A DNA stretch of 12,295 bases from a virus. Taxonomy: Duplodnaviria > Heunggongvirae > Uroviricota > Caudoviricetes. The first letter of the stretch is position 1, and every line of letters begins with the position of its first letter. The position numbers and the translations under genes were made by a program. Shown here piece after piece: positions 10,747 through 10,998 of the stretch. Below the pieces are notes generated by a model that was not told the DNA's origin, ran no database searches, and saw nothing but the letters and a program-made list of their open reading frames with translations. The stretch lies in the IMG/VR virus record IMGVR_UViG_2531839233_000006. One strand, 5' to 3'.

Positions 10747-10998
10747 TTAAAACAAAGAACCAGCAATGCCGCCAATTACTGCTCCAGCAACAGCACCAAC
10801 AGGACCACCAACGGATGCGCCAATAGCCGCCCCCGTACCAATGCCCGTACCGATATTCTGCTTGTTCTGCGCTTTCTGTTGCGCCGCCATCTGTTTGTTC
10901 GCAGCCTCAATTTCTTCACGTCGTCTGTCTGCGTCACTTATTCCCTGTAATGCCTCACGCCGCGACTGATTTGCAATATCCAGTAAACCGTATCCCAT
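10747..10998 (-). CDS. Small membrane protein (83 aa) with C-terminal glycine-zipper transmembrane segment
   Basis: AAGGGGG Shine-Dalgarno 4-5 nt upstream of the ATG at 10996-10998, which lies 9 nt after the upstream stop. C-terminus GTGIGTGAAIGASVGGPVGAVAGAVIGGIAGSLF is hydrophobic with repeated GxxxG/A spacing; N-terminus is charged (RREEIEAANKQ). The antisense ORFs 10696..10950 and 10766..10969 are Pro/Ala-rich shadows. Confidence 0.7.
   Translation of the reverse strand: MGYGLLDIANQSRREALQGISDADRRREEIEAANKQMAAQQKAQNKQNIGTGIGTGAAIGASVGGPVGAVAGAVIGGIAGSLF

What the first reader, a model, noticed from the sequence alone, without database searches (positions are those of the whole stretch)
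10750..10851. 83-aa protein with glycine-zipper C-terminal helix in the middle of the operon
The small protein at 10747..10998 has a charged N-terminus and a 34-residue Gly/Ala/Ile/Val tail with repeated GxxxG/A spacing. Small glycine-zipper proteins can act as membrane-channel subunits, holin-like proteins or toxin-like membrane disruptors. Here it sits between ejection-like genes, so it may be part of an envelope-spanning conduit.
Basis: partly seen in the sequence, partly recalled or inferred. Interest (0 to 1): 0.4.

Follow-up and report, generated by a model that had tools for sequence, protein, structure and literature searches.

The report
Small glycine-zipper phage ejection-module protein
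This 83-residue protein of Shiga-toxin phage 933W, labelled "bacteriocin" in databases, is most likely a small non-essential protein that the phage carries in its head and injects with its DNA, and it resembles the membrane-seeking tail of phage P22's gp7 injection protein.

Summary
Window 10747..10998 (minus strand) encodes an 83-aa protein: 933W L0132, identical to Sp5 ORF78 and orthologous to phi24B gp49. It has a polar N-terminal helix and an uncharged 34-residue tail carrying an unbroken ladder of eight glycines at i+4 spacing (shuffle P about 1e-4).

The reading frame is supported by codon-position substitution patterns, a Shine-Dalgarno site and a published virion peptide. The gene is the fixed third member of a five-gene block (L0130-L0131-L0132-L0133-giant L0134), found in every one of about 109 loci examined across Enterobacterales, Aeromonas and Vibrio.

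In phi24B the four neighbouring proteins are abundant virion proteins that are absent from the cryo-EM map. Two of them are essential in Sp5.

At family level the small protein matches the C-terminal ~65 residues of P22 ejection protein gp7, which ends in the same "...GLLGSLF" (hhalign 95.7%, E 1e-8, with a composition control passed). The 933W copy alone does not reach significance.

The "bacteriocin" label is unsupported, and holin, lipoprotein and defence-system readings all fail their tests.

Best reading (confidence 0.55): a low-copy accessory ejection protein whose glycine-zipper hairpin inserts into the host envelope. It is dispensable on E. coli K-12. Packaging, ejection and membrane insertion are all inferred, not shown.

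The parts
10747..10998 (-). CDS of the 83-aa protein (933W L0132 / ST933Wp70 / NP_049530.1). It is identical to Sp5 ORF78 (ECs1240) and orthologous to phi24B gp49. It belongs to PHROG 594.
11003..11007 (-). Shine-Dalgarno GGGGG, 4 nt upstream of the ATG and directly after the L0131 stop codon (TAA at 11008-11010). This indicates tight operon packing.
10855..10992 (-). Residues 3-48: a polar, charged alpha-helix. Conservation has alpha-helical periodicity, giving one conserved face (G4, L5, A16, G19, A24, E27, R30, N34, Q40 in the family consensus). The spacing from L5 to N34 is fixed in 132 of 133 homologues.
10810..10854 (-). Residues 49-63: the first glycine-zipper half (IGTGIGTGAAIGASV).
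10801..10809 (-). Residues 64-66 (GGP): the turn. The region just before it is the only length-variable part of the family, with 3-14 residues between G60 and G68 and about 80-residue Ala/Gly/Thr insertions in some members. The two zipper halves are therefore separate helices joined by a loop.
10750..10800 (-). Residues 67-83: the second glycine-zipper half (VGAVAGAVIGGIAGSLF), ending in the family-wide C-terminal LF. It is the counterpart of the P22 gp7 C-terminus ...PWGAAIGGGIGLLGSLF.
11457..12113 (-). L0130 (218 aa), first gene of the block, equivalent to Sp5 ORF76 (deletion strongly reduces infectivity) and phi24B gp51 (virion protein, about 22-41 copies). Its residues 130-187 align to L0132 residues 4-61, and it has a Gly-rich uncharged stretch at residues 172-187 (11553-11600).
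11008..11454 (-). L0131 (148 aa), second gene of the block, equivalent to Sp5 ORF77 (non-essential) and phi24B gp50 (virion protein, about 36-73 copies).
9471..10736 (-). L0133 (421 aa), fourth gene of the block, equivalent to Sp5 ORF79 (essential) and phi24B gp48 (virion protein, about 30-56 copies).
1020..9440 (-). L0134, a giant polyvalent protein with LPD5/LPD1/LPD38 domains and a zincin-like domain. It is equivalent to Sp5 ORF80 (essential) and phi24B gp47 (about 19-35 copies, proposed ejection protein). The probable true start is the ATG at 9401. It has a Gly-zipper-like stretch at residues 422-439 (8124-8177).

Best explanation
L0132 is a small, accessory internal-virion (ejection or 'pilot') protein of the 933W-type podophage. 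In architecture it is a stand-alone copy of the 'polar helix plus double glycine-zipper' tail found at the C-terminus of P22 gp7-type DNA-transfer proteins and, in diverged form, in its own neighbour L0130. Proposed mechanism: it is translated late from the Q-antiterminated late transcript, coupled to L0131 and L0133. It is packaged in low copy number (of the order of ten) inside the capsid together with L0130, L0131, L0133 and the giant L0134. It is expelled through the tail ahead of the DNA. Its uncharged helix-loop-helix glycine zipper then inserts into a host envelope membrane. By analogy with the gp7 / T7 gp14 / N4 gp52 class this would be the outer membrane, though the inner membrane is not excluded. 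The glycine faces would pack against each other, or against the Gly-rich stretches of L0130 and L0134, to help form or anchor the trans-envelope conduit. The conserved face of the N-terminal helix would dock on a partner protein. SHOWN: the ORF is real and conserved; its position in the block is invariant; the neighbouring proteins are virion proteins and two are essential; a peptide of this protein occurs in purified virions; the family is homologous to the gp7 tail. INFERRED: packaging, ejection, membrane insertion, which membrane is targeted, and oligomerisation.
For: (1) Identity and frame: the window is 100% identical to 933W. Codon-position bias, the Shine-Dalgarno site and the MS peptide support the frame. 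(2) Invariant synteny: the order L0130-L0131-small-L0133-(morons)-giant LPD protein holds in 11 of 11 loci fetched through the small gene, and a family member follows the L0131 homologue in 80 of 80 loci fetched through that neighbour. The L0130-L0131-small-L0133 order also holds in 16 of 16 bacterial genomes from Citrobacter, Yersinia, Pectobacterium, Brenneria, Aeromonas and Oceanisphaera, and in annotated Aeromonas and Vibrio phages. Stop and start codons often overlap. No promoter-like site lies near the gene. (3) Published phi24B proteomics and cryo-EM: gp47, gp48, gp50 and gp51 (orthologues of L0134, L0133, L0131 and L0130) are abundant in CsCl-purified virions but absent from the reconstructed map. 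gp49, the orthologue of this gene, was detected with 6 spectra. That equals the count for the genuine 12-copy tail adaptor gp62. The authors set gp49 aside only because of its 'bacteriocin' annotation. (4) Published Sp5 genetics: ORF79 and ORF80 are essential after DNA packaging, and deletion of ORF76 strongly reduces infectivity. (5) Link to gp7: 39 of 133 family members hit Pfam PF25688 (P22_gp7), aligning end to end with profile positions ~150-230, and two exceed the gathering score. hhalign of the family against P22 gp7 gives 92% probability. Against a 16-sequence gp7 alignment it gives 95.7%, E 1e-8, matching L0132 21-83 to gp7 167-229. None of 960 composition-preserving shuffles reaches the mean score of the real sequences. 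(6) L0130 residues 130-187 align to L0132 residues 4-61 (80% probability, E 1.5e-5). (7) Precedents for membrane activity of such zippers in injected proteins. The best PDB match is the crAss001 cargo protein gp45 (E 0.05), in a stretch that overlaps its predicted TM helix. Tape-measure proteins carry 4-8 copies of the same zipper. The Tde1 zipper permeabilises the target cell's inner membrane. N4 gp52 and T7 gp6.7/gp14 are small ejected proteins that join the channel.
Against: An in-frame deletion of the identical Sp5 ORF78 (leaving only MGY-SLF) is not among the mutants with lost, reduced or increased plaque formation or lysogenisation on K-12. The MS evidence is thin. Only one distinct peptide appears in the held part of the supplement, with 6 spectra. 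That is the same level as Lom, Bor and an 83-aa early-region ORF, which are clearly not virion components. The 933W protein on its own does not match PF25688 at E<=0.01, and it scores -2.8 bits on a gp7 C-terminal HMM, so the link to gp7 is only transitive through the family. Gly/Ala-rich low-complexity sequence inflates profile scores, and generic Gly-zipper models and TMP zippers match at least as well over the zipper half. Hydrophobicity is marginal for a stable monomeric transmembrane helix. The AlphaFold2 monomer models have low to moderate confidence (pLDDT 55 and 71), and they disagree on whether the tail is a hairpin or one continuous helix. L0133 shows no detectable homology to gp20.
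Confidence: 0.55

Rival explanations
1. It is a morphogenetic or chaperone factor. The small protein helps load or organise the internal proteins, for example the 2,806-aa L0134 or L0130, during procapsid assembly. It would do this through glycine-face helix packing with their Gly-rich stretches. It is either not packaged or, if packaged, has no role after ejection.
For: Gene order is fixed and translation appears coupled inside the block. L0130 (aa 172-187) and L0134 (aa 422-439) carry complementary Gly-rich uncharged stretches. The virion MS signal is low. The Tde1 zipper also serves as the binding site for its adaptor Tap1. The gene is dispensable in Sp5.
Against: The closest relatives of the sequence are the C-terminal tail of gp7, a protein known to be ejected, and the zippers of injected TMP and cargo proteins. 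A peptide was found in CsCl-purified virions at the same count as a genuine 12-copy tail protein. Deleting ORF78 does not reproduce the lethal phenotype of ORF79 or ORF80, as loss of an obligatory loader would be expected to.
Confidence: 0.15
2. It is a membrane protein acting inside the producing or lysogenic cell, for example in superinfection exclusion against related phages (like the HK97 gp15 moron or P22 SieA) or as a holin- or antiholin-like modulator of lysis timing.
For: It is a small protein with a hydrophobic glycine-zipper tail. Weak PHROG hits include Gly-rich parts of endolysin-type proteins. It is dispensable for plaque formation. Exclusion proteins that target ejection-protein function exist in P22.
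Against: No promoter-like site lies near the gene (0 found, 2.1 expected by chance). The block is bracketed by terminator-like hairpins that would insulate it in a lysogen. The gene is present in 100% of module-bearing loci, including apparently virulent Vibrio podophages, which is unlike a moron. 933W has a complete S/R/Rz/Rz1 lysis cassette about 21 kb away. The protein has no charged C-terminal tail and no signal peptide, and no family member contains a cysteine. There is no holin or defence-system match.
Confidence: 0.08
3. It is a class II bacteriocin or microcin, as the RefSeq product name states.
For: There is a sub-threshold Pfam hit to Bacteriocin_IIc (19.7 bits, E 8.8e-4) and a weak hit to MccV. 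35 of 133 family members show the same weak hit.
Against: The score is below the gathering threshold of 27.1. The match covers only profile positions 22-56, the Gly-rich mature peptide, and not the double-glycine leader. The first 49 residues contain no GG cleavage motif. No ABC transporter, C39 peptidase or immunity gene is nearby. The gene always sits inside a phage virion-protein block. More family members match P22_gp7 (39) and generic Gly-zipper models (89) than match the bacteriocin model.
Confidence: 0.02
4. It is a functionless remnant: a decaying partial duplicate of the L0130 / gp7 tail that is carried along in the operon.
For: It is dispensable in Sp5. It appears paralogous to the C-terminal part of L0130.
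Against: Synonymous changes exceed non-synonymous ones (15:6, 18:9 and 23:12 codons). The family comprises 584 clusters at 50% identity, nearly all 76-90 aa and matched end to end. Spacings are fixed and key glycines are invariant at 23-54% identity. Presence is 100% across about 109 loci.
Confidence: 0.03

Closest known systems
P22 gp7 'DNA transfer / ejection protein' (Pfam PF25688; homologues include Sf6 gp11 and the gp7 proteins of CUS-3 and HK620)
   Same: Both have a C-terminal polar helix followed by a two-part glycine zipper that ends in ...G-x-x-x-G-L-L-G-S-L-F-COOH. Both genes sit in the late operon of a short-tailed phage, immediately upstream of a 420-560-aa internal-protein gene. 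The family-level profile match is 95.7% probability, E 1e-8.
   Different: This protein is 83 aa against 229 aa. It lacks the N-terminal ~150 residues and the OpdA-cleaved propeptide. gp7 is essential for DNA injection, whereas this gene is dispensable in Sp5. The 933W copy alone does not reach significance against gp7. A gp7-sized gene, L0130, coexists in the same block.
T7 gp14 / N4 gp52 / DEV gp73 class (outer-membrane complex ejection proteins) and the T7 small core protein gp6.7
   Same: All are small alpha-helical proteins stored in the virion core or tail lumen. They are expelled before the DNA, carry a hydrophobic helix and join or form the trans-envelope channel. In N4 and DEV they accompany a giant ejected protein.
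   Different: No significant sequence relationship was found: only 2 of 133 family members hit PF24072 weakly. Those proteins are 88-200 aa and their structures have been determined. For this protein neither localisation nor channel activity has been measured.
Glycine-zipper segments of tail tape-measure proteins (PF20155 TMPs) and of the crAss001 cargo protein gp45
   Same: They share the zipper motif. TMPs match profile positions ~40-82 at 20-31 bits per repeat and carry 4-8 repeats each. The matching stretch of gp45 (E 0.05) overlaps its predicted TM helix. All are proteins injected ahead of the DNA.
   Different: Only the zipper half matches. Those are internal segments of very large proteins, and they have no equivalent of the N-terminal helix or the C-terminal LF end.
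N-terminal glycine zipper of the Agrobacterium T6SS effector Tde1
   Same: It has repeated GxxxG motifs in a delivered protein. The zipper has been shown experimentally to permeabilise the target cell's inner membrane and to be required for translocation, and it is itself similar to TMP zippers.
   Different: It belongs to a different secretion machine. The zipper is fused to its own toxin cargo. Homology to this protein was not tested.
Gly-zipper outer-membrane lipoproteins (Pfam YMGG, Gly-zipper_Omp, Rick_17kDa 'Glycine zipper 2TM')
   Same: They share the two-helix glycine-zipper motif. Gly-zipper_YMGG is the best Pfam hit for the 933W copy, at 25.7 bits.
   Different: The score is below the gathering threshold of 28.9. 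This protein has no signal peptide or lipobox, and none of 133 family members contains a cysteine. The genomic context is a phage virion block.

Membership tests
P22 gp7 ejection protein family (Pfam PF25688) | Match to the family profile at or above the gathering score (28 bits) | tested here: not met
   The 933W protein gives no PF25688 hit at E<=0.01 and scores -2.8 bits on a gp7 C-terminal HMM. At family level, 39 of 133 members hit the model, and P0076 (31.7 bits) and P0085 (28.7 bits) exceed the threshold.
P22 gp7 ejection protein family (Pfam PF25688) | Full-length architecture of about 230 aa, with an N-terminal domain and a cleaved 20-aa propeptide | tested here: not met
   The protein is only 83 aa and aligns only to profile positions ~150-230.
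P22 gp7 ejection protein family (Pfam PF25688) | C-terminal polar helix plus glycine-zipper tail ending in ...GLLGSLF | tested here: met
   hhalign of the family against gp7 gives 92% probability, and against a gp7 alignment gives 95.7%, E 1e-8. None of 960 shuffles reaches the mean score of the real sequences.
P22 gp7 ejection protein family (Pfam PF25688) | Gene located in the podophage late operon directly upstream of the next, larger ejection-protein gene | tested here: met
   The gene is always followed by the 420-560-aa L0133 homologue, and P22 has the order 7-20-16. However, homology between L0133 and gp20 was not detectable.
P22 gp7 ejection protein family (Pfam PF25688) | Present in virions and released before the DNA | not testable with these tools
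   The only evidence is published MS: one peptide and 6 spectra in purified phi24B virions, the same level as known contaminants.
P22 gp7 ejection protein family (Pfam PF25688) | Required for infectivity | tested here: not met
   This comes from the literature, not from a computation here. The in-frame deletion of Sp5 ORF78, whose product is 100% identical, is not among the defective mutants.
Class II bacteriocin with double-glycine leader (Pfam PF10439), the RefSeq 'bacteriocin' name | Profile match at or above the gathering score (27.1 bits) | tested here: not met
   The score is 19.7 bits.
Class II bacteriocin with double-glycine leader (Pfam PF10439), the RefSeq 'bacteriocin' name | N-terminal double-glycine leader peptide | tested here: not met
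   The match covers profile positions 22-56 only, and residues 1-49 contain no GG motif.
Class II bacteriocin with double-glycine leader (Pfam PF10439), the RefSeq 'bacteriocin' name | Linked ABC transporter / C39 peptidase and immunity gene | tested here: not met
   None is present in the window or in the 933W annotation nearby. All neighbours are virion-block genes.
Gly-zipper outer-membrane lipoproteins (PF13441 YMGG, PF13488, PF05433) | Profile match at or above the gathering score | tested here: not met
   Scores are 25.7 against a threshold of 28.9, 15.9 against 25, and 10.4 against 24.2.
Gly-zipper outer-membrane lipoproteins (PF13441 YMGG, PF13488, PF05433) | Signal peptide with a lipobox cysteine | tested here: not met
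   None of the 133 family members contains a cysteine, and the N-terminus MGYGLLD... is not signal-like.
Holins | Gene located in the lysis cassette next to the endolysin and spanin genes | tested here: not met
   The 933W S, R and Rz/Rz1 genes lie at 25.8-28.0 kb, while this gene lies at 47.5 kb of the phage genome.
Holins | Transmembrane domain(s) followed by a charged cytoplasmic C-terminal tail, plus a match to a holin family | tested here: not met
   The protein ends in the uncharged sequence ...IAGSLF. There is no holin hit in Pfam or PHROGs.
PHROG 594 (phage protein family of unknown function) | Full-length profile match | tested here: met
   E 1.9e-45, with residues 1-83 aligned to profile positions 1-85 of 85.
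Anti-phage defence effectors (PADLOC) | Match to a defence-system protein model | tested here: not met
   Only hits of 14 bits or less, on the low-complexity region.

The most novel reading that the evidence does not exclude
The mini-protein is a membrane-translocation tag supplied in trans. After ejection, its glycine-zipper hairpin, together with the Gly-rich stretches of L0130 and L0134, would permeabilise the inner membrane so that the unfolded 2,806-aa polyvalent protein L0134 and the DNA can pass. This would be analogous to the Tde1 zipper, but encoded as a separate gene. It would define a widespread, previously unrecognised accessory class of podophage ejection proteins (more than 500 sequence clusters) dedicated to delivering giant cargo. 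Its dispensability on K-12 would reflect redundancy with the zippers of L0130 and L0134.
Probability: 0.12. Interest if true: 0.6.

Novelty: new variant of a known kind. Interest (0 to 1): 0.32.

Why it matters
Short-tailed Stx phages spread Shiga-toxin genes, yet how they cross the cell envelope is unknown. The newest structural study of these phages names only the giant gp47 as an ejection protein.

Recognising a conserved five-gene ejection block gives a concrete parts list for that machinery. One member is a stand-alone version of the gp7 tail, and another (L0130) is a possible gp7 counterpart.

There is also a practical annotation point. The propagated "bacteriocin" name is unsupported, and it has already caused a proteomic detection in purified virions to be discarded as contamination.

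The family is large, with 584 clusters at 50% identity. It always accompanies giant polyvalent proteins, so it may bear on how such large cargo is delivered into cells.

Tried and rejected
(1) Solved structures. No PDB relative was found for the small protein beyond a weak Gly-rich hit to crAss001 gp45. None was found for L0130, L0131, L0133 or P22 gp7.

(2) AlphaFold2 monomers. With 7 sequences the model had pLDDT 55 and showed a helix, a loop and two short helices. With 133 sequences it had pLDDT 71 and showed one continuous helix. The models disagree on the tail, and a single helix is uninformative, so I ran no fold search.

(3) An apparent resemblance between the N-termini of L0132 and L0133 was rejected (hhalign 0.1%).

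(4) The idea that L0131 plus L0132 form a split gp7 was rejected, because L0131 against gp7 gives 2.3%. L0130 against the gp7 N-terminus gives 16.7%, which is suggestive only.

(5) The idea that L0133 corresponds to P22 gp20 is undetectable at sequence level (1.1%).

(6) Bacteriocin, holin, lipoprotein and defence-effector readings each failed their defining features.

(7) Overlapping ORFs on the opposite or same strand (10696..10950 +, 10766..10969 +, 10776..10937 -) were rejected on the substitution pattern and on stops in homologues.

(8) An independent promoter, which would indicate a moron, was not found.

(10) The September 2026 bioRxiv preprint on the in-situ P22 channel (10.64898/2026.09.03.749273) should show where the gp7 tail sits, but its full text could not be read.

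(11) The older phi24B lysogen-expression study contains nothing on this gene.
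Full report
WHAT THE WINDOW IS. The 12,295-base window is 100% identical to Shiga-toxin phage 933W (NC_000924 / AF125520), in reverse orientation. The finding's ORF, 10747..10998 on the minus strand, is gene L0132 (ST933Wp70, NP_049530.1). GenBank calls it 'hypothetical protein' and RefSeq calls it 'bacteriocin'. The same protein, 100% identical, is ORF78 (ECs1240) of the Sakai Stx2 phage Sp5. Its orthologue in phi24B is gp49.

CHECK OF THE OBSERVATION. The description is accurate.
- The protein is 83 aa. Residues 1-49 are polar, with 8 K/R and 7 D/E.
- Residues 50-83 are uncharged and consist of 12 Gly, 7 Ala, 4 Ile, 4 Val and a few others. The finding's coordinates 10750..10851 are exactly these 34 codons.
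- GxxxG occurs eight times, and glycines 52, 56, 60, 64, 68, 72, 76 and 80 form an unbroken period-4 ladder.
- Shuffling the tail 200,000 times gives a mean of 3.5 GxxxG, P(>=8) = 0.0011 and P(ladder of 8) = 0.00016. The spacing is therefore not a by-product of composition.

The reading frame is secure on four counts.
- Substitutions between diverged copies concentrate on codon position 3 (7/1/17, 5/5/21 and 10/6/26 for positions 1/2/3).
- Synonymous codon changes outnumber non-synonymous ones.
- All five alternative frames carry stops in 933W and almost all in the diverged copies.
- A GGGGG Shine-Dalgarno lies 4 nt before the ATG and directly after the stop codon of L0131. A GGAG follows the L0132 stop, ahead of L0133. 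The peptide EALQGISDADR (residues 15-25) was also identified by LC-MS/MS.

Hydrophobicity is borderline. The Kyte-Doolittle 19-mer maximum is 1.69, but a crude sum on the Hessa scale gives +4.95 kcal/mol. A monomer would not be expected to sit stably across a bilayer.

THE FAMILY.
- A profile search of 1.84 billion representative proteins found 584 clusters (50% identity) at E<=1e-3 and 144 at E<=1e-10. Nearly all are 76-90 aa and match from end to end.
- In an alignment of 133 members sharing 23-54% identity with the 933W protein, G56 and G72 are invariant, and G68, G76, G52, G65 and P66 are present in 88-99%.
- All spacings are fixed: L5 to N34 in 132 of 133 members, N34 to G52 in 123 of 133, and G68 to G80 in 127 of 133. 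The one exception is the stretch between G60 and G68, which varies from 3 to 14 residues.
- Some members carry an insertion of about 80 Ala/Gly/Thr residues at exactly that point. The tail is therefore best read as two zipper helices joined by a loop at the conserved GGP. One AlphaFold2 model instead draws a single continuous helix.
- Conservation in the N-terminal helix has alpha-helical periodicity, with a peak at 105 degrees. This suggests one conserved docking face.
- No member contains a cysteine, and none has a signal-like N-terminus.

GENOMIC CONTEXT. The gene is the third of five co-directional, tightly packed genes: L0130 (218 aa), L0131 (148 aa), L0132 (83 aa), L0133 (421 aa) and the 2,806-aa polyvalent protein L0134. 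This order was found in every locus examined.
- 11 of 11 loci retrieved through the small protein, at 30-98% identity, including Vibrio and metagenomic contigs.
- 80 of 80 viral contigs retrieved through the neighbour L0131 carry a family member directly downstream, of which 33 are diverged.
- 16 of 16 bacterial genomes from Citrobacter, Yersinia, Pectobacterium, Brenneria, Aeromonas, Pseudaeromonas and Oceanisphaera.
- The annotated phages Aeromonas phiARM81mr and Vibrio 252E42.2.

Morons are sometimes inserted between L0132 or L0133 and the giant gene, but the small gene never moves. No sigma-70-like promoter lies in the region (0 found, 2.1 expected by chance).

PUBLISHED EXPERIMENTS THAT BEAR ON THE GENE.
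(a) phi24B cryo-EM and proteomics (bioRxiv 10.64898/2026.04.10.717836).
- The orthologues of L0134, L0133, L0131 and L0130 are abundant in CsCl-purified virions, at roughly 19-35, 30-56, 36-73 and 22-41 copies. They are absent from the reconstructed map. The authors propose gp47 as an ejection protein.
- gp49, the orthologue of this gene, was detected with 6 spectra in the batch digest and 13 overall. It was classed as contamination 'based on functional annotation', being a 'homolog of a bacteriocin'.
- By the authors' own normalisation I calculate that 6 spectra for 83 aa corresponds to about 6-9 copies per virion. The genuine 12-copy tail adaptor gp62 gave the same count of 6.
- Nearly half of the protein is a single 37-residue hydrophobic tryptic peptide, which is unlikely to be observed.
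- Against this, Lom, Bor and an early-region 83-aa ORF gave similar counts, and only one distinct peptide is visible in the stored part of the supplement. This evidence is suggestive, not decisive.

(b) Sp5 systematic knockouts (Mondal et al. 2016, PMC5155283).
- In-frame, marker-free deletions show that ORF79 (the L0133 orthologue) and ORF80 (the L0134 orthologue) are essential at a step after DNA packaging. Deletion of ORF76 (the L0130 orthologue) strongly reduces infectivity.
- ORF77 and ORF78 were deleted individually. The ORF78 primers leave only MGY-SLF. Neither is listed among the mutants with lost, reduced or increased plaque formation or lysogenisation. The gene is therefore dispensable on K-12 in the laboratory.
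- ORF77 is also dispensable even though its product is one of the most abundant internal proteins. Dispensability therefore does not argue against virion membership.

THE LINK TO P22 gp7. Scanning all 133 family members against Pfam gave an unexpected result.
- 39 members match PF25688, 'Bacteriophage P22 DNA ejection protein gp7' (best E 1.7e-8). That is more than match the bacteriocin model (35). Two members weakly match T7 gp14.
- The alignments run from about residue 5 to the C-terminus of the small protein, and from profile position ~150 to 230 of 230. Two of ten members inspected exceed the gathering score.
- P22 gp7 ends ...STPWGAAIGGGIGLLGSLF. The family consensus is ...GGPxGAxIGAxxGxLAxxLF, and the 933W protein ends ...GAVIGGIAGSLF.
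- Profile-profile comparison gives 92% probability against the single gp7 sequence. Against a 16-sequence gp7 alignment it gives 95.7% and E 1e-8, matching L0132 21-83 to gp7 167-229.

Because Gly-rich sequence inflates such scores, I ran a composition control.
- Real gp7 sequences score a mean of 15.7 bits (range 3-25) on the small-family HMM, with the alignment spanning HMM positions ~10-82.
- 960 composition-preserving shuffles of the gp7 tail score -2.9 +/- 3.7 bits, with a maximum of 9.8. None reaches the real mean.

Three caveats apply. The 933W copy itself scores -2.8 bits on a gp7 C-terminal HMM and has no PF25688 hit at E<=0.01, so its link to gp7 is transitive through the family. TMP zippers score 20-31 bits, but only over the zipper half. 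Generic Gly-zipper models hit 89 of 133 members.

Within the block, L0130 residues 130-187 align to L0132 residues 4-61 (80% probability, E 1.5e-5). The N-terminus of L0130 weakly resembles that of mature gp7 (17%). The simplest reading is that L0130 is the diverged gp7-sized counterpart and L0132 is a stand-alone paralogue of its tail. That reading is an inference.

HOW SUCH TAILS WORK ELSEWHERE.
- gp7 is one of three P22 E-proteins, present at about 12 copies per virion. It is released before the DNA, and all three are needed for K+ release and DNA injection. It is grouped with T7 gp14 as the outer-membrane or tail-proximal element of the conduit.
- N4 gp52 (150 aa) is stored in the tail lumen, has a TM helix, forms channels in planar bilayers and accompanies a giant ejected protein.
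- T7 gp6.7 is a small core protein that joins the channel.
- The best PDB match of L0132 is a stretch of the crAss001 cargo protein gp45 (E 0.05) that overlaps its predicted TM helix. That region lies in the N-terminal part of gp45, which is stored in the tail and is expected to be ejected first.
- Five long hits from the profile search are bona fide tape-measure proteins carrying 4-8 copies of the zipper.
- The Tde1 glycine zipper has been shown experimentally to permeabilise the target cell's inner membrane and to be required for translocation.

RIVAL READINGS.
- Bacteriocin: the score is sub-threshold (19.7 against 27.1), only the Gly-rich mature part of the profile is matched, there is no GG leader, and there is no transporter or immunity gene.
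- Holin: 933W has its own S/R/Rz/Rz1 cassette about 21 kb away, and this protein has no charged C-terminal tail.
- Lipoprotein Gly-zipper families: scores are sub-threshold and there is no lipobox.
- Defence effector: no match.
- Moron or superinfection-exclusion protein: there is no promoter, the gene is present in 100% of blocks, and terminator-like hairpins insulate the block.
- Assembly-only factor: not excluded. I give it 0.15.

VERDICT. The most likely function, at confidence 0.55, is a low-copy accessory ejection protein. It would be a miniature, stand-alone version of the gp7-type glycine-zipper tail that inserts into the host envelope or packs with the Gly-rich stretches of its partners during conduit formation.

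It is a new architectural variant of a known kind of protein, in a well-studied phage. Interest is modest (0.32). The value lies in completing the parts list of the Stx-phage ejection machinery, correcting a propagated misannotation, and flagging a large family that always accompanies giant polyvalent proteins.

Noticed in passing
window 12136-12155 (-) and 9419-9438 (-): Two intrinsic-terminator-like hairpins, each followed by a U-run, bracket the L0130-L0133 block. One lies in the L0129/L0130 gap (dG -16.5 kcal/mol, z -5.2). The other lies between the L0133 stop codon and the likely L0134 start (dG -15, z -2.6). They would be read through under Q antitermination, and they could insulate the block from moron promoters in a lysogen.
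   Followed up: partly
window 9401-9440 (-): The annotated 933W L0134 start (ATG at 9440, 2806 aa) lies inside the terminator-like hairpin. Sp5 ORF80 is 2793 aa, which corresponds to the ATG at 9401 (MAYSEEQ...) preceded by GGAG. The 933W annotation is probably 13 codons too long.
   Followed up: partly
window 12114-12188 (-): The mechanical ORF for L0130 extends to a TTG at 12188 (243 aa), running across the upstream hairpin. The annotated ATG at 12113, with a GGGGG Shine-Dalgarno, is the credible start (218 aa).
   Followed up: partly
RefSeq and GenBank records of Stx phages; L103:9001-9258; L102:2990-3223: The product name 'bacteriocin' is propagated to this family in many Stx-phage RefSeq records, in Aeromonas phage phiARM81mr and in Vibrio phage 252E42.2. 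It is unsupported by any threshold-passing model. It led the phi24B authors to discard their own MS detection as contamination.
   Followed up: yes
L094-L098, about 6369-6866: Five family members carry an ~80-residue low-complexity Ala/Gly/Thr insertion between the two zipper halves. The flanking helix and final zipper are intact. The purpose of this expandable linker is unknown.
   Followed up: partly
proteins P0071 (442 aa), P0050 (220 aa), P0134 (150 aa): These database entries appear to fuse the small protein, or its N-terminal half, to the downstream L0133-like gene. They may be frameshifts, assembly errors or true fusions. I did not resolve which.
   Followed up: no
window 8124-8177 (-), 11553-11600 (-); also L0134 aa 2462-2476 and 2553-2566: The giant protein L0134 and L0130 carry their own short uncharged Gly/Ala-rich stretches with small-xxx-small spacing. 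These are possible packing partners for, or redundant equivalents of, the L0132 zipper.
   Followed up: partly
window 11553-11724 (-) (L0130 aa 130-187): The C-terminal part of L0130 aligns to the N-terminal helix and first zipper half of L0132 (hhalign 80%, E 1.5e-5). Small proteins in four genomes also cross-hit the L0130 HMM (E 5e-5 to 2e-4). This suggests an ancient duplication within the block.
   Followed up: partly
window 125-469 (+): This ORF encodes a YgiW/YdeI-type BOF OB-fold protein with a signal-like N-terminus (Pfam BOF, 114 bits). It sits on the opposite strand just beyond the end of L0134 and is a typical lysogenic-conversion moron.
   Followed up: no
window 5100-5900 (-) (L0134 aa ~1195-1450): L0134 matches the NCBIfam CLCA_X family (149.7 bits, below its cutoff of 260) around an HEWFH zincin-like motif. 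This is consistent with the MuF-C metallopeptidase domain reported for phi24B gp47.
   Followed up: no
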